From the sequence record LC765218.1: a stretch of DNA of 64,000 nt. The stretch is one strand, 5' to 3'. Positions 1,830 through 34,048 of this stretch are shown piece after piece. This DNA is from Pseudomonas phage BRkr. Every line of letters starts with the position of its first letter. Position 1 is the stretch's first letter. The notes under the pieces are model-generated. The model was not told the DNA's origin, did not search any database, and was given only the letters and a program-made list of their open reading frames with translations. Made by a program: the position numbers and the translations under genes.

Positions 1830-4800
1830 TTATTGTACAGGTACTGGATTTCCATTAACTGGAATCATCCAACGTTTTGTTGGATCTTCAAAACTTTGAA
1901 GAATCCTTGGTGCACCGTAGATGTCTTTTACCTTAGTGTTAGGTAAGATAGTCCAGGTATCATTAAACCAAGCATATACCGTATTGGTTTTCATATCGCA
2001 AACAATATTTCTCTTTAGACTACTCTCGTAAGTAATGTCTTTGAAATAAGAGTTAGCCTGCGACAAACTACCAAAACCATATTTCTTACCACCTTTGAAA
2101 ATACTTAATTCAGGATGGTCATTTAGATTAATACTCATGTCATAGGCTGGATTAAATGTTGTTCCATTCCAATCCGAACATTTAACATTAAACAGGTCAC
2201 CTGTTCTGATTACCTTAACACGTATGAATCTACCGCTCCAACCTTTAGGTGGTGTTGCTTCCCTAACTGAATATTCCTTATACTCAGTGGGATTCGCATT
2301 CCAAGTCGTATGCTTGCTAAAGTCCTTTACAATGGACTGAACTGGCCATACTGGTCTATTAGACCAATCTCCACTTGGACCGGATATTACTAAGTCAAGT
2401 GTATGGTTACGTCCAGCAGCTTCATCACGATTAAATGCTAGAATAACCGTGTTAAAGTCGTCGTCAGCATCACTTGATGTAAGAGTGACTTCAAGTTCAT
2501 ATGACTCTGGAGCTTCATCAGAAATGAATCCATTATAAAGACTAGTATTGATTGGTTGAACCGCAGCCTGTAATGTATCATTCCAGTACCAACTAGCGGC
2601 ATCACCTTCTGCACCTACACCACCAGGGAATAGTTTATCATTATTAAACCTATCCCAACTCTCGAAGATTTGTTTTGGCGTCGGAGGTTTTAACCTTTCA
2701 AGAGTCTCTAACGTTTCGGCTGTAGTTGCATAAGCTAAACCCTGAACATTAGTTTTCTGTAACTCACCAGTGAAATAACTAATAAGATTCTTAAAGTGAG
2801 AACCTACACTTAAAGTATTATTTAGAATATTGTAAACTGGTCGGAGTTGATGAATATCTTCAACTAGTTTGTGGGGCACTTGGATAGGAGTAACAGAATA
2901 GATAGGTTCACCCGTTTCTGTAGTACCTGTCTTAAATCGATCAAGATACGGCTTGGTATTTTCAGCGCGACCATATCGGTTAGCAATAGCAGGCGTATAA
3001 CGTTTGATCGGTAATCGGGATTCGTACTCAAACGGCTCTACGATTTTAACTCGTATTTCATCGTTATCATTAACATAGATTCCGTCTACTGGATAGATCG
3101 TCTGATGACTACCTGTTTCAGTAGAGTACCAAGCCTGACCAACTTTTGTTTCCCTTGCTGCCGCCGAACCTTCAGAACGGTAAATATCTGCTATAATACT
3201 ACCAACAGAAGATCCATCGATTTCTATTGTAATGTCAGCAATATCAGACAAGTCGGTATCGAGCAGGGTGATATTATTACCTTCTTTATCTTTGAAGATA
3301 ACATAGTCACCTGTACCAATGAGGTATGCGAAACTCATCGACTTAACGCTACCGTCCGTTAACCGTAGCAAGAAGTTAACAGTATGTTTTCCAGGGTTGA
3401 AGGTTAATGTCACTGGATCCTTCTTTTGGAAAACAACTTCTTTAACGACTACACTCGACTCACTACCACCAGCTACGATAAAATCGCCATCAGTTAGATC
3501 ATTGTAGAGAACATGATCGCCGTAAGTCGATCGTATAAATCCAACGTTAACATTCGATCTATCGACAGAACCACTGAAATATGCGTTGAAGTTTACAGCA
3601 AGTTGGTTAGCAGTAACAAAGAAACAGTTAGATGCAGTTGGAACCGGATACGCTTCTTCGATGCTGTTAATAACTGGACCATGGTCTGTAAATATGAAAA
3701 TGCCATTACCAGCTTTCCGATATGTAAGAATATCCTGAATCGCAGTTTGCGTAAACTTACCGTTAACTGATTGATTCGGATCACTTAAAGAACCAACAAA
3801 TACCAACCCTGCGTAATTGTTTAATTCCGTTAAGGTTGGATTTAAATGGGTTCCATCATAATCGGTCTGATCTTTCAGAGTGCATGTAAAACCACCAGCT
3901 CCCGCAACCTTAGTAATGTATTCATTGAACGCGGTCTTCAGTACATAGTTACCAGTAGTTGCATCACCTAGGACAAGAATGTTTTTATTACCGCTAGCGA
4001 CTTTCGCAGGGTTAGCAATAAAATCAAGACAGTTCTTAAAATAGGTTTGACTAGAGTTTAGGTTTTTACCTGGACCAAGATAGCGTTTACGGGTAACAGT
4101 CCAACTACCTATCCAATCCTGCGGTGTTGTTGGATTAACCACAAGACTGTTCGTCATGATAGCGAAAGCAACAGTTGTTCCGTTAAGGATCCGTGCATTT
4201 CTCAGCTGCCCACGATACTCTTTTACAAGGGTAGGATCTGCTTCATTTTCAAATGCCACGGTCCAAGTCGATAACCGCTTACCAACAATGGCTTCCAATG
4301 GGACTGTACGTGTTACCCATTTGTTTTTCCATTCTGGCCTATCTCTACACATAACTGGATGTGTTGCAGTGGCGGGGTTACCATTGTCTTTGATTACAGG
4401 ACTGTAGTTCCTAAATCGAACAGGGTTATTACCAGTTTCATCATAAACAGTACAGTCTAAACCAAAATATGCATCATCGAACACATAGTGATCGTAAACA
4501 AGAACATCTCCACTTTTAACTGTGTAAGTGTTATTGTTAATTACTTCATAGTAGCAAAGGTCTAGACCGTTTGCATCAGGTTGTAGTCTAGCAGAGAAAT
4601 CTAGAACACCCTGAGTCATGGAAATGTTTGCTGCCTGTGGATTCATGAACTTTGGAAAACCACCATCGTAAACAACGTTGCCGTTACCATCTTGGGTAAC
4701 GGCAATGAATGGAGTAGGCGGGCTTAAAGAATCGTAAGCGATATACTCAGAAACGACCGGCGGTAAACCATTAACAGAATACGCGACACCATTAGTAGCG

Positions 4801-14327: not shown

Positions 14328-15428
14328 ATGTCTTATCGTGGCCCTAAACTTAATCCTAACCAGCAATATTGGATTGAGCGTTATGTTGAACTAGCTCTGC
14401 GAGCTGGTCAAGCCGGTTCCCCTTGGAAAGTACACCACTATATTCTCAATGAAAAGGGTCTCAATACAGATAGCGAGAAGCTCCGCATCTATTATCCTTT
14501 TGGCGTTGATCGTGAAGAGTATATTAAAGAACGGATTGTCGAGATTAAGAAGAATGTCATTGAGACATTTAACCTTACTGCTTTTTCTATTAGTGGTGGT
14601 TGGGCGCTGCTTGATGCAGAAGGTATCCTCGGTTTCCTTATTGAGGGAATGGAAGGTTCAACTAGCCATGGCTTCACCATTTACTCCACTGAAGAATTTG
14701 CTCAGAAGTTCAAGGAACGTTTTGAGTCTGTATTCGATCAGACCAGACCTCCGAGCATCAAGCGCATTCGATTGAATCGTCAGAAGGATGAACTCTATGC
14801 ATGGAGTGAGGTAATTGCTACGCGTGAATACAATGATAAGCTGATGGCAATGTATCCGTTCCTGACTCGTTCCCCAGCTGAAACTTGGGAGGCATTCGCA
14901 GCATCCGATTCTAATATCCTCCTGTTGATTGGGCCGCCTGGCACGGGTAAGTCTACGTTCATTAACGAAATGGTTCGTGCACGTGGTTATGACGACCGTA
15001 ACGTATACTTGGCAGACCAAGACTCCGTACTGAGTCATGGTGATCTCACCAGCTTTATTCGTGGTGTCGAGGATAACTCGCTGATCATTACTGAAGACTC
15101 TGATAAGATGGTTGCCAAACGCGAGGATGGTAACAGTAATATGGCAGGGCTGTTGAATGCGACTGCTGGACTTGTGTCTACCAAAACCAAGATCATCATC
15201 TCTACTAATCTCCCAACTCTTCGTGATGTTGACGAGGCTCTAGTTCGTCCTGGACGTGCTTTCGATATCCTCACCTTTAAGACCCTTACGGCTGAACAAG
15301 CAAACGATGCTCGTATTGCTAACGGTCTTGAGCCTGTGGATTTCGTTGGTAATAACTTCACTCTGGCTGAAGCATTGAACACTGATGCAGCTAGTTCTCC
15401 CCGTAAAGCAAACCGTATTGGTTTCTAA
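14328..15428 (+). CDS. classic AAA-family ATPase with a unique ~190-aa N-terminal domain
   Basis: Walker A LLLIGPPGTGKST and Walker B LIITEDSD. Second region of homology STNLPTLRDVDEALVRPGRAFD matches the classic-AAA TNRPDxLDxALLRPGRFD. Confidence 0.7.
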   Translation: MSYRGPKLNPNQQYWIERYVELALRAGQAGSPWKVHHYILNEKGLNTDSEKLRIYYPFGVDREEYIKERIVEIKKNVIETFNLTAFSISGGWALLDAEGILGFLIEGMEGSTSHGFTIYSTEEFAQKFKERFESVFDQTRPPSIKRIRLNRQKDELYAWSEVIATREYNDKLMAMYPFLTRSPAETWEAFAASDSNILLLIGPPGTGKSTFINEMVRARGYDDRNVYLADQDSVLSHGDLTSFIRGVEDNSLIITEDSDKMVAKREDGNSNMAGLLNATAGLVSTKTKIIISTNLPTLRDVDEALVRPGRAFDILTFKTLTAEQANDARIANGLEPVDFVGNNFTLAEALNTDAASSPRKANRIGF

Positions 15429-28428: not shown

Positions 28429-28439
28429 TGGTACATTTG

Positions 28440-28480
28440 GCCCTCCCTTCGGGGAGGGCTATATGTCGTTTTTTATTTTA
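28440..28480 (+). terminator. terminator gccctcccTTCGgggagggc + TATATG + T-tract
   Basis: 8-bp GC stem followed by TTTTTTATTTT. Confidence 0.65.
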
Positions 28481-28510: not shown

Positions 28511-28550
28511 CATGTGTTTGATCCCCCTACACACCCAACGAGGAAAATCA

Positions 28551-29066
28551 ATGTCTTTTATATCTGCGGAATCTTTCACTAATTGGAAGTTCTATAAGGA
28601 ATTGAGAAAACAGCATCGCAAACATTTACAACTGTGTCGCCACCGAGCAATTTTGTTCTTTGGCGATGTAATAGGTAGACCCAGGTTGCATATTGATGGT
28701 ATTTTATTCAAAGATCTATTTGTCATTCCAGATGTCTTCGTTGTCAGTGGTGGTGACGAGGATTCATTCGATCATCGACTGGAAGAACTGGACAAAGAAA
28801 TATGTGTGATCATGAACAATGTCTTCGTACAGCTTGAAGCGGAAGCTATCAACGATTACTACAAAAGTTCTTCACGAGGTGTTACTATTCGTCCTAATGG
28901 AGAAACTCCAGTAAAAGACGATGTTGTTATTGGTGAAGGGAAAATTTATATCTGTGATGGCAATGGCAATCTAAACTTACTTTCGAACGAACCTGGTGTA
29001 GTCTATGCATCGACAACTCCATGGTATCTTAAGCCATGGAATTTCATAAAGAACATGTTCCGTTGA
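28551..29066 (+). CDS. hypothetical protein (171 aa)
   Basis: GAGGA RBS before the ATG at 28551; the ORF-track start at 28512 lies inside the class B motif. Confidence 0.45.
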   Translation: MSFISAESFTNWKFYKELRKQHRKHLQLCRHRAILFFGDVIGRPRLHIDGILFKDLFVIPDVFVVSGGDEDSFDHRLEELDKEICVIMNNVFVQLEAEAINDYYKSSSRGVTIRPNGETPVKDDVVIGEGKIYICDGNGNLNLLSNEPGVVYASTTPWYLKPWNFIKNMFR

Positions 29067-29073
29067 GGTAATC

Positions 29074-29505
29074 ATGTATCCATTCCAGAAACCCAATGAG
29101 CTGCAACCACGTCATGAACTTGATGGTGATGTTATTACCAATCGTTGGGTTCCGGGTGTAGCACCGCGTACTTTAAAAGAACTCAAAGAAGTACATGCTA
29201 ACCTTCCCAAAGGTGATCTTAGTGCTCTCGATGAATTCAGCCGATCGGTTAGTCAATCCATCGATGCTTATCTCATTGAAGATAGCGATGAGTCTAATGC
29301 AGCTGTAAAGAAAATAATCTCGGAATCCAAGACATGGAACATTAGTGTCTATACGGGTACCCAGATCCATCACATACTCACGGCCAATCCCAAAATGGCA
29401 AATGGTCCTGAAGATGTAGGTTACTTCAAGAAATACCGTGATCACATGTCTTCTCTCAATAAAGAAAAGAAACTGATCACTTCTATCACTGAACGATTCC
29501 TTTAA
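29074..29505 (+). CDS. hypothetical protein (143 aa)
   Basis: ORF only. Confidence 0.45.
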   Translation: MYPFQKPNELQPRHELDGDVITNRWVPGVAPRTLKELKEVHANLPKGDLSALDEFSRSVSQSIDAYLIEDSDESNAAVKKIISESKTWNISVYTGTQIHHILTANPKMANGPEDVGYFKKYRDHMSSLNKEKKLITSITERFL

Positions 29506-29519
29506 TCTGGAGACTCAAA

Positions 29520-30317
29520 ATGATCAAACTCACTTCTGCACTGAATCAAAAACTGGTTGAAGCATACTACAACTGGAATGCAGATAACAACATGTACCGC
29601 TTCGACTGTGTTATCGATGTAGGTTATCTGGCAGAACCGCTTCGTAAAATCATGATGCGTTCGAAAGATTTCAATGCCACTAATGGTACCATCGTTCTCA
29701 ATCTGTCGGTAAATGCGTGCCGCCACATTGATTATTCGGGTGATTGCTTCTATGGTGAAATTGCTTTCTCGGGTATGCCTACTCGTTTGCATCTGCCATG
29801 GCATTCTTTCATTGGTGTGAATGTGCAGATCTCTGAGAATGCAAGTGTGTTCTCTTCGTTCCCTAATGTCGATCGGATTTTGTTTGATGCCGAGAATCCG
29901 ACGTATGTTCATCCCTTCCGCGATATTGCTAATGGTGCGCCTGGTACCGTCAGCATTGATATCGTAGATGTAATGGCATGGCTGGCAGAGAAGGGAATCA
30001 CCGATGTTCCCGTAGAGAAAGCGCTTGAACATGTACAGCACATGGTTAGCAACGATGACGATTTGTTCTCTCAGTTCTTGTCCTATGTTTCCGAACGTGC
30101 AAATACTCGGAAACTAAAAGAACTGGAAGAAACTGAAGATTTCATTGCTAATCAACCTGGTGTGGAGGTTAGTCCGATCAAGAAATACCCCGAACTGAAG
30201 GTTGTTGATAAACCTCTTCTCGACTTTGGCGATCTTCCCGGTGCACCAGTTAATGTTGCTCCATCCCGTTATAAAGGCAAGCCGAAGCTTACCGTAATTA
30301 AAGGAGGTAAAAAGTAA
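29520..30317 (+). CDS. SspB-like ClpXP adaptor homolog
   Basis: The N-domain aligns block-by-block with E. coli SspB: AYYNWNADNNMYRFDCVIDV vs AFYEWLLDNQLTPHLVVDV, NGTIVLNLSVNAC vs DGQIVLNIAPRAV, GEIAFSGMPTRLHLPWHSFIGV vs FNARFGGIPRQVSVPLAAVLAI. Acidic linker, then KPKLTVIKGGKK resembling the ClpX-binding tail RPALRVVK. Confidence 0.65.
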   Translation: MIKLTSALNQKLVEAYYNWNADNNMYRFDCVIDVGYLAEPLRKIMMRSKDFNATNGTIVLNLSVNACRHIDYSGDCFYGEIAFSGMPTRLHLPWHSFIGVNVQISENASVFSSFPNVDRILFDAENPTYVHPFRDIANGAPGTVSIDIVDVMAWLAEKGITDVPVEKALEHVQHMVSNDDDLFSQFLSYVSERANTRKLKELEETEDFIANQPGVEVSPIKKYPELKVVDKPLLDFGDLPGAPVNVAPSRYKGKPKLTVIKGGKK

Positions 30318-30565
30318 TGTCTCTTGCAGGAGCTATTCTCATTAGCACTACTATTGTCTCTGGTATTTATGCTGGTGGTTCTTCTGAAACCACCACTAAG
30401 ATGGAAAGCATTGACTCCTGTTGGAAAGCTGTAGGTGCTATTCAAGATACAACAGCAGCGAATGGAACTAAAGTTAAAGTAGTTCGTACTCAGGCCGGTG
30501 TGGTTCTGGAATACGAATTCGATAATAAAAACATTCGTCGCGAAATGTCATGCGTTTCAATGTAA
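30317..30565 (+). CDS. small secreted or membrane protein (82 aa)
   Basis: N-terminal hydrophobic segment LAGAILISTTIVSGIYAGG. Confidence 0.4.
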   Translation: MSLAGAILISTTIVSGIYAGGSSETTTKMESIDSCWKAVGAIQDTTAANGTKVKVVRTQAGVVLEYEFDNKNIRREMSCVSM

Positions 30566-30598: not shown

Positions 30599-30635
30599 GG
30601 GGCTCCTTCGGGAGCCCCATCTATTTTCTTTTTGT
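30599..30635 (+). terminator. terminator ggggctccTTCGggagcccc + T-rich tail
   Basis: 8-bp stem followed by TCTATTTTCTTTTTG. Confidence 0.65.
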
Positions 30636-30649
30636 CGTGAGGTATAGAA

Positions 30650-31405
30650 ATGACATCTCCATTCGTAATGTCCCGTATCCATAAAGAGATCGCTGATGGT
30701 CTTTCTCTTGGCACTGTAGATATCGGACGCAAACCACTGGAGTTCGTATTTTGCACCCCCAGTTATGAAGAGTTTCAAGAACTCGTAGCTATCTCTGATT
30801 TTGTCAAGCAACTTGGACATGACCTTAAAGTGTTTCATGGTACGCTTGATGCACTCGGAGACCACGCGGACGAGTTTGACTACTACATGACCGCGGGTAA
30901 CTCATACGGGCATATGACCGGTGGATATGATGGTGCCCTAGCTACCCGTTTTGTTAACATGCAGAAAAATGTGGTTCACGATATCAATCGTTTCCACAAC
31001 GGTGAGTTAAACGTAGGTTCCTGTGCTTGCGTTCAATTCACCAAACTTAATGGTATCACTGCAACACTCCTGTACACTCCTACGATGCGTGTTCCTCGCA
31101 GGCTACCCAAAGGTTCGGATGTTCCGTATCTAGCCTCTAAGGCAGCTCTAGATGGCATTGCTGGGTGTGAATGGTACGGTAAACAAAAGAAAGATTCTTT
31201 CCGTGTCCTCGGTTGCCTGATGGGAACCGGCACTGGTGTTATTCCAGCCCGAGTAGCTGTAACCCAATTTGCAATTGCGTTGTACAACTATACTTACCCG
31301 TCCAATGTAGAGAAGCTGTTTAAGGATGGTCAACGTACTGACAACGCTATTCGTGAAACCTGGAAAGAAGAGGGCGGGTTCTGGAAACTTCGTCTTGAGG
31401 AATAA
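30650..31405 (+). CDS. macro-domain protein (ADP-ribose binding/processing)
   Basis: HGTLDALGDHADEFDYYMTAGNSYGHMTGGYDGALA aligns with the macro core GDITxxxxDVIVNAANxxLxGGGGVDGAIH. A later GTGTGVIP matches the macro P-loop-like GxGxxGxP block. Confidence 0.6.
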   Translation: MTSPFVMSRIHKEIADGLSLGTVDIGRKPLEFVFCTPSYEEFQELVAISDFVKQLGHDLKVFHGTLDALGDHADEFDYYMTAGNSYGHMTGGYDGALATRFVNMQKNVVHDINRFHNGELNVGSCACVQFTKLNGITATLLYTPTMRVPRRLPKGSDVPYLASKAALDGIAGCEWYGKQKKDSFRVLGCLMGTGTGVIPARVAVTQFAIALYNYTYPSNVEKLFKDGQRTDNAIRETWKEEGGFWKLRLEE

Positions 31406-32380: not shown

Positions 32381-32705
32381 AATCGTAAGTCGTAACCTAC
32401 TGCAATCCACTGGTGCTTGGGCAGTCGTCCATAACCGTGCTACCATGAACTTCATTGCTATCGGTCATGACCGTAAGGTTATTAAAGGTATCAGTCTGGG
32501 TTATCCGGTGAATGTTGGTGATGTCGATTTCAGTCATGTCGTGGATGTCCCTATGACCTTCGAAATCAGTTATCAAAATGATCCTCATCTGGGTCATCCT
32601 ACTGGTAATATGGAAGCTCTTCTGAAAGCTATTGAAGAAACTACCCATAAAACTCTAGGTCTTCCTAGCAAGTTGACCGTAGCTTCTAACGATGGAGGTG
32701 TTTAA
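32361..32705 (+). CDS. hypothetical protein (114 aa)
   Basis: Overlap coupling. Confidence 0.4.
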   Translation: MKMTISEIVSRNLLQSTGAWAVVHNRATMNFIAIGHDRKVIKGISLGYPVNVGDVDFSHVVDVPMTFEISYQNDPHLGHPTGNMEALLKAIEETTHKTLGLPSKLTVASNDGGV

Positions 32706-34048
32706 TGCATCAGTATCTACAACTACTTGAAGATACCCAGAAGTACGGTGTATTTAAAGGTGACCGTACTGGTACGGGTACTACCTCTTTGTTCGGTAGA
32801 CAGTTCCGCTATGATCTTCGTAACGGTAACCTCCCTGTAGTGACCACCAAGAAGATTCATCTTCCGTCGGTTGAAGAAGAACTCAACTGGATGAAGTCTG
32901 GTGACACTCGCCTTGAGTATCTCCTGAGCAAGAACGTTACCATTTGGAATGAATGGGTTAAACCAGGTACTGAAGTATTTGAAATTGTTTCTGATGAGTG
33001 GTTAACCACGGCTGTTCAGAAAAAGTTCAAAAACGTTCCATTTGAAATGCACTTCAGTAATGAGATCGGTGATGTTGATTGGAAGTGGCTTGAACCCGAG
33101 CAGGGTACCCCAGCTAAACTTCTGATTAATCTGAAGACGTGGGCCGATACGGAACGCTTTGGTCCTGGTCCTAGTGCTTATGATTATTACGGCATGGCTC
33201 TACGTGTTTATCGCATCACTATTGGCGATGCAAAGATCGTAGTCAAAGACAAAGATGGTTCTCTTGTTGCTTACCGTTTAATCGGTGGTGACCTTGGTCC
33301 TGTCTACGGCAAGACATGGCGTGATATCGATGACGTTCGAATTGTCCCCAAAGTCGACTGGGTTAACTACGAGAAACGTGGTTTTAAATTCGTGGTAGAC
33401 GTACCTGGTGAAGACTATACTAAAGACGAGTGTGTTATTCGTCGACATGTGGATCAGGTTCAGGAACTCTTGTATCAGTTGGAGCATAATCCGGATAGTC
33501 GTCGTCTGATTATCTGCGCTTGGGATCCTCGGTTGGTTGAAGATCAAGCACTACCTCCATGCCACGCATTTATTCAGTTCTGGACTCGTGAGCTGACTCT
33601 AGAAGAACGTTATGAATGGGCGCAGGAAAATGATCCAGAATCACAGAACATTTATCTAGAGGATCAGCAACCTGAAACTGGACACGAGCTATGGGATAAA
33701 CTCGGGGTTCCGAAACGAGCTATCAGTTGCCAACTCTATCAAAGATCGGCGGACGAATTTTTGGGCGTGCCCTTTAACATCATGTTCTATTCGCTGATGA
33801 CCCATCAATTGGCGAACCAGTTTAACATGGTAGCAGAAGAGTTCATCTGGACTGGTGGTGACTGTCACATCTACAGTAACCATGAGGAACAGGTTACTCT
33901 GCAACGTTCGCGGAATACTTATCCTACTCCTACCATCCGCTTCAAGCCTGAGGCCAAAGGTAAACCTTTCCTTGATATCACTCGGGAAGATTACGAGATT
34001 CTGGATTATCAGTTCCATCCGCACATTGCTGGTAAAGTTGCTGTTTAA
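32705..34048 (+). CDS. thyA: thymidylate synthase (ThyA) family enzyme with three large insertions (447 aa)
   Basis: DRTGTGT, DLGPVYGK, catalytic Cys in LPPCHAFIQFW and FLGVPFNI. GGDCHIYSNH keeps the Asn typical of uracil substrates. About 180 aa of extra sequence relative to the 264-aa E. coli enzyme. Confidence 0.8.
   Translation: MHQYLQLLEDTQKYGVFKGDRTGTGTTSLFGRQFRYDLRNGNLPVVTTKKIHLPSVEEELNWMKSGDTRLEYLLSKNVTIWNEWVKPGTEVFEIVSDEWLTTAVQKKFKNVPFEMHFSNEIGDVDWKWLEPEQGTPAKLLINLKTWADTERFGPGPSAYDYYGMALRVYRITIGDAKIVVKDKDGSLVAYRLIGGDLGPVYGKTWRDIDDVRIVPKVDWVNYEKRGFKFVVDVPGEDYTKDECVIRRHVDQVQELLYQLEHNPDSRRLIICAWDPRLVEDQALPPCHAFIQFWTRELTLEERYEWAQENDPESQNIYLEDQQPETGHELWDKLGVPKRAISCQLYQRSADEFLGVPFNIMFYSLMTHQLANQFNMVAEEFIWTGGDCHIYSNHEEQVTLQRSRNTYPTPTIRFKPEAKGKPFLDITREDYEILDYQFHPHIAGKVAV

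What the first reader, a model, noticed from the sequence alone, without database searches (positions are those of the whole stretch)
29520..30317. Phage-encoded SspB-like ClpXP specificity adaptor
The first ~110 residues align block-for-block with the substrate-binding domain of bacterial SspB. The protein then has an acidic flexible region and ends in KPKLTVIKGGKK, which resembles the ClpX N-domain-binding tail (RPALRVVK) of SspB. A phage copy could retarget host ClpXP towards new substrates such as defence proteins, or away from ssrA-tagged or phage proteins. This is a host-proteostasis takeover not commonly annotated in phages.
Basis: partly seen in the sequence, partly recalled or inferred. 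Interest (0 to 1): 0.7.

Follow-up and report, generated by a model that had tools for sequence, protein, structure and literature searches.

The report
Jumbo-phage SspB-like protease adaptor
A Pseudomonas jumbo phage encodes a diverged copy of the bacterial SspB adaptor that probably hooks onto the host ClpXP protease through a conserved tail peptide; relatives in other jumbo phages were already flagged as SspB-like, but the same tail peptide also turns up on many unrelated small phage proteins, which appears not to have been described.

Summary
The ORF is real (29520..30317, +, 265 aa). The window is a ~300 kb Pseudomonas aeruginosa jumbo phage (BRkr/PA1C/PS119XW group).

The tail SRYKGKPKLTVIKGGKK is the most conserved part (78% pairwise identity, against 32% for the domain). 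A graded series links it to the bacterial ClpX-binding peptide: RPSLKVVK*, KPTLRVVK*, KPTLTVVK*, KPKLTVIKGGKK*.

It differs from bacterial SspB in five ways:
- Thr replaces the basic residue after Leu.
- A GGK(K) extension follows the motif.
- A second conserved motif, PLLDFG, is present.
- A folded helical insert replaces part of the linker.
- The YARENG signature is lost, so the cargo is probably not the classical ssrA tag.

ClpX binding is inferred, not shown.

The idea is not new. PhiPA3 gp270, RAY gp039 and some phiKZ gp232 records are already labelled SspB-like, but none has been tested.

What appears new is that the extended tail is portable. A viral-contig scan found it on about 12 unrelated protein families, at the C-terminus in 30 of 33 hits (permuted control: 3 hits).

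The parts
29520..30317 (+). SspB-like gene, 265 aa, orthologue of PhiPA3 gp270 and phiKZ gp232
   Evidence: ORF list. 100% identical to a BRkr hypothetical protein. Orthologues: PhiPA3 39% identity, Psa21 26%; phiKZ/PA7 gp232.
29541..29894 (+). SspB substrate-binding-domain homologue (aa 8-125): helix alpha1 plus beta-sandwich
29961..30149 (+). Acidic three-helix insert (aa 148-210), specific to the BRkr/PhiPA3 clade
   Evidence: AF2 helices 148-157, 165-177 and 180-210 with block pLDDT 80-96. Net charge -8. No significant fold match. Linker pairwise identity in the family is 17%.
30213..30230 (+). Second conserved short motif P-L-L-D-F-G (aa 232-237), partner unknown
   Evidence: Invariant P232, L233, L234 and G237 among close relatives. 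Present in about 14 of 22 family members, with 60% pairwise identity inside an otherwise 17%-identical linker.
30264..30314 (+). Basic tail SRYKGKPKLTVIKGGKK (aa 249-265): XB-like core P-K-L-T-V-I-K plus G-G-K-K extension
   Evidence: 18 of 22 members carry P-x-L-x-[VIL][VIL]-[KQH]-G-G-[KR]. Core pairwise identity 78% against 32% for the domain. Graded series to bacterial [RK]PxL[RK]VVK*. Net charge +7. Disordered in the model.
30301..30308 (+). Shine-Dalgarno AAGGAGGT lying inside the K-G-G-K codons, 8 nt before the ATG of the next gene
   Evidence: Junction sequence AAGGAGGTAAAAAGTAATG. Gly codons vary synonymously between phages. A relative with no coupled downstream gene still keeps K-G-G-K.
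30317..30565 (+). Translationally coupled 82-aa ORF with a hydrophobic N-terminus and two conserved Cys; conserved partner gene
   Evidence: Start overlaps the stop of the SspB-like gene. Homologue follows the SspB-like gene in phiKZ/PA7 (blastp E=3e-10) and, unannotated, in PhiPA3. PHROG 32080, function unknown.
28512..29505 (+). Two upstream orphan ORFs (184 aa and 143 aa) in the same tightly packed block
   Evidence: ORF list. No Pfam or PHROG family.
28438..28461 (+). Terminator-like hairpin upstream of the four-gene block
   Evidence: 10-bp stem with 7 GC pairs plus a T-run. The overall count in the region is not above shuffles, so this is suggestive only.
30599..30618 (+). Terminator-like hairpin downstream of the four-gene block
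   Evidence: 8-bp stem with 7 GC pairs plus a T-run, in the intergenic gap after the 82-aa ORF.

Best explanation
The gene encodes a diverged member of the SspB adaptor superfamily that acts in the host cytoplasm, outside the phage nucleus.

Shown: residues 8-125 adopt the SspB peptide-binding fold, and the disordered C-terminal region ends in a strongly conserved basic peptide derived from the SspB ClpX-binding (XB) motif.

Inferred: the protein dimerises through helix alpha1 as SspB does. Its tails dock on the zinc-binding N-domains of host ClpX. The groove holds a peptide of a cargo protein, so the cargo is tethered to ClpXP and degraded faster.

The most conserved SspB signatures outside the central IVLN-x-x-x-A strand are replaced (RPY, R75, YARENGxG). 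The cargo is therefore most likely not the classical ssrA tag but some other host or phage peptide, still unidentified.

The extra PLLDFG motif, the helical insert and the co-translated 82-aa partner gene are candidate cargo-handling or regulatory elements.
For: Fold and homology.

Architecture (domain, spacer, disordered basic tail).

The tail is the most constrained segment: 78% pairwise identity against 32% for the domain and 17% for the linker; 18 of 22 members carry it.

The tail is homologous in position to XB and linked to it by intermediates within SspB homologues: Pseudomonas SspB GRPSLKVVK*, pf16 gp18 KKPTLRVVK*, RAY gp039 KKPTLTVVK*, P0019 KPPFLKIVK*, phiKZ gp232 and this protein KPKLTVIKGGKK*. 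The published XB peptide is RGGRPALRVVK (PMC3983244, PMC8808172).

Retained SspB core residues: A16, W20 and D23 of alpha1, and I51-V52-L53-N54-I55, A59, G78, P86.

Cytoplasmic and non-virion, as a ClpXP partner must be. RAY gp039-GFP is diffuse in the cytoplasm (PMC10299810). phiKZ gp232 is expressed, absent from virions, elutes in a high-molecular-weight fraction, and is diffuse outside the shell (PMC10449902).

No phage-encoded ClpX-type unfoldase lies in the window. The only AAA proteins nearby are a generic AAA ATPase here and a BCS1-like one in Psa21.

The same tail peptide occurs as a C-terminal module on about 12 unrelated phage protein families (33 hits against 3 for the permuted control). 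That behaviour fits a docking peptide.
Against: No binding or degradation data exist for this protein or any orthologue.

The basic residue after Leu is Thr in every jumbo-phage version. That residue is part of the LKxh consensus for binding the ClpX zinc-binding domain (PMC7226468).

The motif is not at the C-terminus, unlike 78 of 80 bacterial SspBs.

A similarity-predicted XBR in RssB failed to bind the zinc-binding domain.

26 of 40 columns that are at least 90% conserved in bacterial SspB are changed in the phage family, so part of the groove or dimer interface has changed.

The single sequence fails the curated family thresholds.

The spacer contains a folded insert, and it is unknown whether that is compatible with SspB-type delivery geometry.
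Confidence: 0.45

Rival explanations
1. Competitive decoy. The protein occupies the ClpX N-domain docking sites with a high-affinity tail and delivers nothing. This blocks host adaptors (SspB, RssB-type) and N-domain-dependent substrates, so that phage proteins or chosen host proteins are protected from ClpXP.
For: SspB, or its XB peptide alone, competitively inhibits RssB-mediated sigma-S turnover (PMC7226468), so a tail alone can act as an inhibitor. The tail is far more conserved than the substrate domain. Very small proteins (53-91 aa) carrying only this tail exist, which fits blockers better than adaptors.
Against: The SspB-like domain is conserved across the whole family, including the central groove strand IVLN-x-x-x-A. 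A pure decoy would not need this.
Confidence: 0.2
2. Classical SspB replacement. The protein still binds ssrA-tagged polypeptides and simply boosts their clearance by ClpXP during infection, for amino-acid recycling and ribosome-rescue hygiene.
For: Homology to SspB is clear. The central strand and A59 are conserved. Host-like SspB copies do occur in phages, for example pf16 gp18, which passes an NCBIfam SspB cut-off.
Against: The signatures R10-P11-Y12, R75, Y94 and E97-N98-G99-Q100-G101 are invariant in bacterial SspB and kept in pf16 gp18 (partly in RAY gp039), but are lost here. Ghanbarpour et al. state that only the dimer interface and the ssrA groove are highly conserved in SspB. Losing 26 of 40 such columns therefore implies a changed groove. 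The host already has SspB (Q9HVY8, seen).
Confidence: 0.12
3. The SspB fold is reused as a generic peptide-binding module, and the tail docks on a different hub. That hub could be another host protein or a phage protein such as a phage AAA+ ATPase or the nuclear shell. In that case ClpXP is not involved.
For: The tail differs from XB at the basic position and carries a conserved GGK extension that bacterial XB never has. The extended motif is found on many unrelated phage proteins from contigs of 33-71% GC, so it could be a separate motif that resembles XB by convergence. phiKZ gp232 co-eluted with, and was enriched in, shell preparations. Psa21 has a BCS1-like AAA+ gene two genes downstream.
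Against: Positional homology and sequence intermediates within SspB homologues (RAY KKPTLTVVK*, P0019 KPPFLKIVK*) argue for descent from XB. The tagged phiKZ gp232 did not localise to the shell. The BCS1-like neighbour is not conserved next to the gene in this window.
Confidence: 0.18

Closest known systems
Bacterial SspB (E. coli / H. influenzae / Pseudomonas; Pfam PF04386; PDB 1OX9, 1OU8, 8ET3)
   Different: About 22-24% identity. Fails the Pfam and NCBIfam cut-offs. RPY, R75 and YARENGxG are lost. It is 265 aa rather than ~135-165 aa, with a folded three-helix insert. Thr replaces Arg/Lys after Leu, and GGKK follows the motif so it is no longer C-terminal. There is an extra PLLDFG motif.
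Erwinia phage RAY gp039 and Agricanvirus relatives ('putative SspB-like ClpXP adaptor', Prichard et al. 2023, PMC10299810)
   Same: SspB-like accessory gene of a nucleus-forming jumbo phage. It is cytoplasmic, and its tail also has Thr after Leu (KKPTLTVVK*).
   Different: RAY gp039 is short (150 aa) and keeps YARE and R-F. Its motif is at the true C-terminus, and it lacks the GGK extension, PLLDFG and the helical insert. It scores higher against the SspB models (55 bits against 25). It is not detectably similar to the window protein by tblastn.
phiKZ gp232 / PA7 gp129 (PHROG 25970) and PhiPA3 gp270
   Same: True orthologues. They have the same N-domain, the same tail ...PKLTVIKGGKK*, and the same downstream coupled small ORF. 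PhiPA3 gp270 also has PLLEF.
   Different: phiKZ gp232 is 302 aa with a different, longer middle region and no PLLDFG. Identity to the window protein is low: 39% for PhiPA3, and about 15% in the structural alignment with PA7.
Pseudomonas phage pf16 gp18 (host-derived SspB, PMC5587285)
   Same: A phage-encoded SspB with an XB tail.
   Different: pf16 gp18 is a near-bacterial copy. It passes the NCBIfam NF008769 cut-off (166 bits, cut-off 135), keeps all signatures and has a canonical C-terminal KPTLRVVK*. The window protein is an old, diverged jumbo-phage lineage.
Other phage tools that act on Clp proteolysis (jumbo-phage ClpS, ClpP, ClpX; Iyer et al. 2021, PMC7824862)
   Same: The same theme of phage interference with host AAA+ proteolysis.
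   Different: Different proteins and a different protease partner (ClpS works with ClpAP). SspB-like genes are not discussed in that survey.

Membership tests
SspB superfamily (ClpXP specificity-enhancing factor) | SspB substrate-binding-domain fold (N-terminal helix packed on a small beta-sandwich) | tested here: met
SspB superfamily (ClpXP specificity-enhancing factor) | Statistically supported sequence homology to SspB | tested here: met
   Family profile against PDB SspB E=1e-15. hhalign 99.3%, E=3e-20. 18 of 21 family members hit PF04386 individually, best 6e-10.
SspB equivalog (Pfam PF04386 gathering score; NCBIfam NF0087xx equivalog cut-offs) | Single sequence scores above the curated family threshold | tested here: not met
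   Pfam 16.3 bits against a gathering score of 27. Best NCBIfam 24.9 bits against a cut-off of 162. The control pf16 gp18 passes NF008769 (166 bits, cut-off 135).
SspB superfamily (ClpXP specificity-enhancing factor) | Conserved ssrA-tag-binding groove residues | tested here: inconclusive
   Conservation was used as a proxy because contact lists were not readable. Of 40 columns at least 90% conserved in 75 bacterial SspBs, 14 are kept in the phage family (including I51-N54, A59, G78, P86). 26 are changed, including R75, Y94 and E97-G101. This suggests a re-specified groove.
SspB superfamily (ClpXP specificity-enhancing factor) | Homodimer through helix alpha1 | not testable with these tools
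   The alpha1 residues A16, W20 and D23 are conserved. phiKZ gp232 elutes at high molecular weight. No multimer prediction was available.
SspB superfamily (ClpXP specificity-enhancing factor) | Flexible spacer between the domain and the ClpX-binding peptide | tested here: met
   Residues 211-250 have pLDDT <=61 and no secondary structure. The spacer is acidic. However, it also contains a folded helical insert (148-210) that bacterial SspB lacks.
SspB superfamily (ClpXP specificity-enhancing factor) | C-terminal XB peptide [RK]-P-x-L-[RK]-[VI]-V-K-COOH | tested here: inconclusive
   P, L, V, I and K are kept in register, and the preceding R-x-x-G-[KR] is also matched. The basic residue after Leu is Thr, and four residues (GGKK) follow the motif. 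Intermediates exist in RAY gp039 and P0019.
SspB superfamily (ClpXP specificity-enhancing factor) | Binds the ClpX N-terminal zinc-binding domain and enhances ClpXP degradation of bound cargo | not testable with these tools
   No experimental data were found for any orthologue.
PHROG 25970 (phiKZ gp232-like, unknown function) / PHROG 8945 (SspB-like) | HMM match | tested here: met
   phrog_25970 E=8e-10 over residues 1-121. phrog_8945 'stringent starvation protein SspB-like' E=7e-5.

The most novel reading that the evidence does not exclude
The extended tail K-P-x-[LF]-T-[VL]-I-[KQ]-G-G-K is an undescribed, portable short linear motif. It would be a phage-borne docking tag for a universal host hub, most likely the ClpX N-domain. 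It sits at the C-terminus of many unrelated and mostly orphan phage proteins, from phages of very different hosts (contig GC 33-71%).

On this reading the jumbo-phage SspB-like protein is only one carrier. Phages would possess a whole toolkit of XB-mimic-tagged adaptors, blockers or self-destructing proteins that plug into ClpXP.
Probability: 0.3. Interest if true: 0.75.

Novelty: new variant of a known kind. Interest (0 to 1): 0.5.

Why it matters
No phage-encoded ClpXP adaptor has been functionally characterised in the literature I could search. Nucleus-forming jumbo phages such as phiKZ, PhiPA3 and this group are therapy candidates whose cytoplasmic takeover functions are largely unknown.

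If the protein docks on ClpX, it gives a concrete and cheap way to find which host or phage proteins are destroyed or spared during infection. These could include defence proteins, antitoxins or sigma-factor regulators.

The portable tail, if it is a ClpX-docking tag, would define a sequence signature for finding many more phage proteins that act on host proteolysis. It would also provide a natural alternative to the XB peptide for engineered degradation systems.

Tried and rejected
1. A single-sequence Pfam or NCBIfam call is below threshold. I rejected it as a decisive test because profile and fold evidence are strong.

2. The first AF2 model, built from 3 sequences, was unusable (pLDDT 41). 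I repeated it with 21 sequences.

3. The search for related loci with the full family alignment failed because there was no conserved 7-10 column stretch.

4. I tried to obtain the published ssrA-contact and XB-contact residues. The structural papers (Song & Eck 2003; Levchenko 2003, 2005; Chien 2007; Park 2007) are not held, so conservation was used as a proxy.

5. I considered that the GGKK extension exists only because its codons form the Shine-Dalgarno sequence of the overlapping downstream gene. I rejected this as the sole cause for three reasons:
- Gly codons vary synonymously between phages.
- A relative with a terminator and no coupled gene keeps K-G-G-K.
- Unrelated proteins carry the same peptide.

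6. I considered a phage-encoded unfoldase as the tail's partner. The window's AAA ATPase (14328-15425) and Psa21's 'FtsH' are generic or BCS1-like AAA proteins, not ClpX-like.

7. PLLDFG was compared from memory with the beta-clamp motif (QL[SD]LF), the ClpP-docking motif (IGF) and the SSB-tip motif. It fits none of them, so it is left unexplained.

8. The helical insert has no significant fold match.

9. The small tail-bearing proteins have no relatives in named phages and almost no family hits.

10. The stored supplements of the phiKZ interaction-proteomics paper list no partner for gp232.

11. The antisense ORF 29502..30041 (179 aa) is treated as a shadow ORF. The + strand frame is the one conserved in the protein family.

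Full report
**What is there.** The window carries an ATG-started ORF at 29520..30317 on the + strand. It is 265 aa and ends ...SRYKGKPKLTVIKGGKK. The DNA is 99% identical to ~300 kb Pseudomonas aeruginosa jumbo phages of the PA1C / PS119XW / phiHQ group (genus Pawinskivirus). The protein is 100% identical to a 'hypothetical protein' of phage BRkr. Every record of this group annotates the gene as hypothetical. Orthologues are PhiPA3 gp270 (39% identity), Psa21 gp299 (26%) and, more distantly, phiKZ/PA7 gp232.

**Is it an SspB homologue?** Taken alone the sequence is marginal:
- Pfam SspB: 16.3 bits, E=0.01, below the gathering score of 27.
- NCBIfam SspB equivalogs: at most 24.9 bits against cut-offs of 135-202 for the five SspB models it matches.
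- phmmer against PDB: E=4.6e-5 to H. influenzae SspB.

An exhaustive profile search of 1.8 billion representatives found only about 20 relatives. A profile of these 21 sequences gives much stronger evidence:
- It matches E. coli and H. influenzae SspB at E=1e-15 over the whole substrate-binding domain.
- 18 of 21 members hit PF04386 individually.
- hhalign against 75 bacterial SspBs gives 99.3% probability, E=3e-20.

**How far has the domain drifted?** I compared it with 75 gamma-proteobacterial SspBs. Of the 40 columns that are at least 90% conserved there, 14 are kept in the phage family:
- alpha1 residues A16, W20 and D23
- the strand I51-V52-L53-N54-I55
- A59, V60, G78, P86 and A95

The other 26 are replaced. 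These include R10-P11-Y12, T27-P28, R75, Y94 and the E97-N98-G99-Q100-G101 loop, the 'YARENGxG' signature. Ghanbarpour et al. report that only the dimer interface and the ssrA groove are highly conserved in SspB. From this I infer that part of the peptide groove has been re-specified. I could not read the primary structural papers to list the exact contacts. RAY gp039 and pf16 gp18 keep much more of the bacterial signature.

**The spacer.** Residues 126-248 have net charge -10. Residues 148-210, however, are modelled as a three-helix module with high confidence, and only ~211-250 is disordered. The helical module has no fold match and is not conserved outside the BRkr/PhiPA3 clade. Within the disordered part, a second short motif, P-L-L-D-F-G (aa 232-237), is conserved in about 14 of 22 members. 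Its pairwise identity is 60% in a linker that is otherwise 17% identical. I found no known motif that it matches.

**The tail.** 78 of 80 bacterial SspB loci fetched from genomes end [RK]-P-x-L-[RK]-[VI]-V-K at the very C-terminus. In Pseudomonas this is GRPSLKVVK*. The experimentally used XB peptide is RGGRPALRVVK (PMC3983244, PMC8808172). Within SspB homologues there is a graded series:

| Protein | C-terminus |
|---|---|
| pf16 gp18 | KKPTLRVVK* |
| RAY gp039 | KKPTLTVVK* |
| P0019 | KPPFLKIVK* |
| phiKZ gp232 | TPKLTVIKGGKK* |
| this protein | KPKLTVIKGGKK* |

The upstream R-x-x-G-[KR] also aligns with Pseudomonas R-P-S-G-R. In the phage family the tail core is the most conserved segment, at 78% mean pairwise identity against 32% for the folded domain. 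18 of 22 members carry it. This is what one expects of a docking peptide.

There are two systematic differences from XB. Thr replaces the Arg/Lys after Leu, which is part of the LKxh consensus for binding the ClpX zinc-binding domain (PMC7226468). And G-G-K-(K) follows the motif. The same paper gives a warning: RssB's similarity-predicted XBR did not bind the zinc-binding domain.

**Why GGKK?** The codons AAA GGA GGT AAA AAG contain a perfect Shine-Dalgarno sequence (AAGGAGGT). It lies 8 nt before the ATG of an overlapping 82-aa ORF. In BRkr, PhiPA3, phiKZ and Psa21 a downstream gene overlaps the stop codon. However:
- The Gly codons vary synonymously: GGA-GGT, GGC-GGA and GGT-GGT.
- A metagenomic relative whose gene is followed by a hairpin, with no coupled ORF, keeps K-G-G-K.
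- The peptide recurs on unrelated proteins (see the next section).

Selection on the protein is therefore real. The ribosome-binding site may be an added constraint.

**A portable tail.** I scanned IMG/VR for a back-translated P-x-[LF]-T-x-I-[KQ]-G-G-K pattern. This gave 33 loci, against 3 for a control with the same codon classes permuted.
- Only 3 of the 33 are the jumbo-phage SspB-like genes.
- In 30 of 33 the motif ends 1-7 residues before a stop codon.
- With the tail removed, the carriers fall into 15 blastp clusters. That is about 12 independent families once the SspB-like genes are merged and one duplicated gene is merged.

The carriers include a 53-aa helical protein (...EKPKFTVIQGGKKDG*), a 91-aa zinc-ribbon protein (...EKPKFTLIKGGKE*), 110-118-aa proteins (...EKPKLTVIKGGKNDNKTD*) and a 220-aa protein weakly similar to replication initiators. 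In three hits (L090, L101, L105) the motif is not C-terminal; one of these, L090, is a small terminase with the motif near its N-terminus. Contig GC ranges from 33% to 71%.

Almost all carriers are orphans and none occurs in named phages. No paper in the library contains the peptide. The preceding K-P-K and the C-terminal position were not imposed by the search pattern. So the extended tail behaves as a short linear motif shared across phages of diverse hosts. ClpX and its zinc-binding N-domain are found throughout bacteria (established knowledge, not checked here), whereas SspB is restricted to certain proteobacteria (PMC8138137). A ClpX partner is therefore plausible, but this is inference.

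**Context and experimental hints.** The gene lies in a tightly packed, same-strand block bracketed by two strong hairpin/T-run sites at 28438-28461 and 30599-30618. The block is 28512..29066, 29074..29505, the SspB-like gene, and the 82-aa ORF.

The two upstream genes are orphans. The 82-aa ORF has a hydrophobic N-terminus and two conserved Cys. It also follows the SspB-like gene in phiKZ (gp232.1, E=3e-10) and in PhiPA3, where it is unannotated. It is thus a conserved gene pair and a candidate partner.

Experimental data exist only for orthologues:
- RAY gp039-GFP is diffuse in the cytoplasm outside the phage nucleus (PMC10299810).
- phiKZ gp232 is expressed, non-virion, elutes in a high-molecular-weight fraction, and is diffuse outside the shell when tagged (PMC10449902).

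This fits a protein that works on cytoplasmic host machinery. No interaction partner is recorded in the stored supplements.

**Prior knowledge.** The idea is not new.
- pf16 gp18 was discussed as a phage SspB in 2017 (PMC5587285).
- PHROG 8945 is 'SspB-like'.
- 78 phage records, mostly jumbo phages, hold an SspB-like gene.
- Two phiKZ-like records name gp232 'stringent starvation protein B'.

None has been tested functionally in the literature I could search.

**Verdict.** Homology and adaptor architecture are solid, while ClpX docking and any retargeting role are inferred.

My best explanation (confidence 0.45) is a cytoplasmic SspB-type tethering adaptor with a re-specified cargo groove and an XB-derived tail. 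The rivals are:
- a competitive blocker of the ClpX N-domain (0.2)
- a tail that docks on a different hub (0.18)
- a plain ssrA-tag adaptor (0.12)

As a phage SspB-like gene it belongs to a known but uncharacterised kind. Its subfamily is a distinct variant, with an extended internal XB-like motif, PLLDFG, a helical insert and loss of the YARENG signature. The portable tail motif is the most interesting by-product of this analysis.

Noticed in passing
IMG/VR loci L090-L122 (e.g. L091:5900-5929, L099:1493-1522, L092:11868-11897): The peptide K-P-x-[LF]-T-[VL]-I-[KQ]-G-G-K occurs at the C-terminus of about 12 unrelated, mostly orphan phage protein families. There are 33 hits against 3 for a permuted control, and 30 of 33 lie within 7 residues of a stop. 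Contig GC ranges 33-71%. The partner is unknown, and the peptide is absent from the searchable literature.
   Followed up: partly
window 30317-30565 (+): An 82-aa ORF with a hydrophobic N-terminus and two conserved Cys, whose ATG overlaps the stop of the SspB-like gene. A homologue follows the SspB-like gene in phiKZ/PA7 (gp232.1, E=3e-10) and in PhiPA3, where it is not annotated (L002 ~3786-4060, GTG start). A metagenomic relative (L126) lacks it.
   Followed up: partly
window 30301-30308 (+): A perfect Shine-Dalgarno sequence, AAGGAGGT, is encoded by the K-G-G-K codons of the tail, 8 nt upstream of the next gene's ATG. This is a case of dual coding and regulatory use. It is not the sole reason for GGK conservation (L126 control).
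   Followed up: yes
window 30213-30230 (+), aa 232-237: A conserved P-L-L-D-F-G motif sits in the disordered region about 18 residues before the tail. It is present in about 14 of 22 family members and absent from bacterial SspB. It fits no known binding motif that I could recall.
   Followed up: partly
window 30192-30206 (+), aa 225-229: E-L-K-V-V just upstream of PLLDFG is identical to the core of the Pseudomonas SspB XB motif (S-L-K-V-V-K) and fits the LKxh consensus for binding the ClpX zinc-binding domain. It is not conserved in relatives, so it is probably chance.
   Followed up: partly
window 28438-28461 and 30599-30618 (+): Two GC-rich hairpins followed by T-runs lie in intergenic gaps and bracket a four-gene block (28512..30565) that contains the SspB-like gene. 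This is a possible transcription unit. The total count of such sites in the region is not above shuffles.
   Followed up: no
window 30650-31405 (+): This 251-aa protein is annotated 'tail protein' in PS119XW/PA1C, but the PhiPA3 orthologue gp271 carries a macro-domain (histone macroH2A1 C-terminal) note. There is no Pfam hit. PHROG 2613 (unknown) scores 1e-29 and PHROG 14717 'tail protein' 2e-20. The 'tail protein' label looks doubtful.
   Followed up: partly
window 14328-15425 (+): An AAA ATPase (PF00004, E=1e-9) is only 74% identical to its PS119XW counterpart gp239, whereas the region around the SspB-like gene is ~99% identical. This is a locally divergent gene. Psa21 has a BCS1-like AAA+ gene two genes downstream of its SspB-like gene.
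   Followed up: partly
window 32705-34048 (+): The thymidylate synthase is 447 aa, although the 266-position Pfam model is covered end to end (residues 2-447). This implies an insertion of roughly 180 residues.
   Followed up: no
protein P0019 (metagenomic family member, 151 aa): This short member of the phage family ends KPPFLKIVK at the true C-terminus, without GGK. It is a bacterial-style XB tail on a phage-type N-domain, and so an evolutionary intermediate.
   Followed up: no
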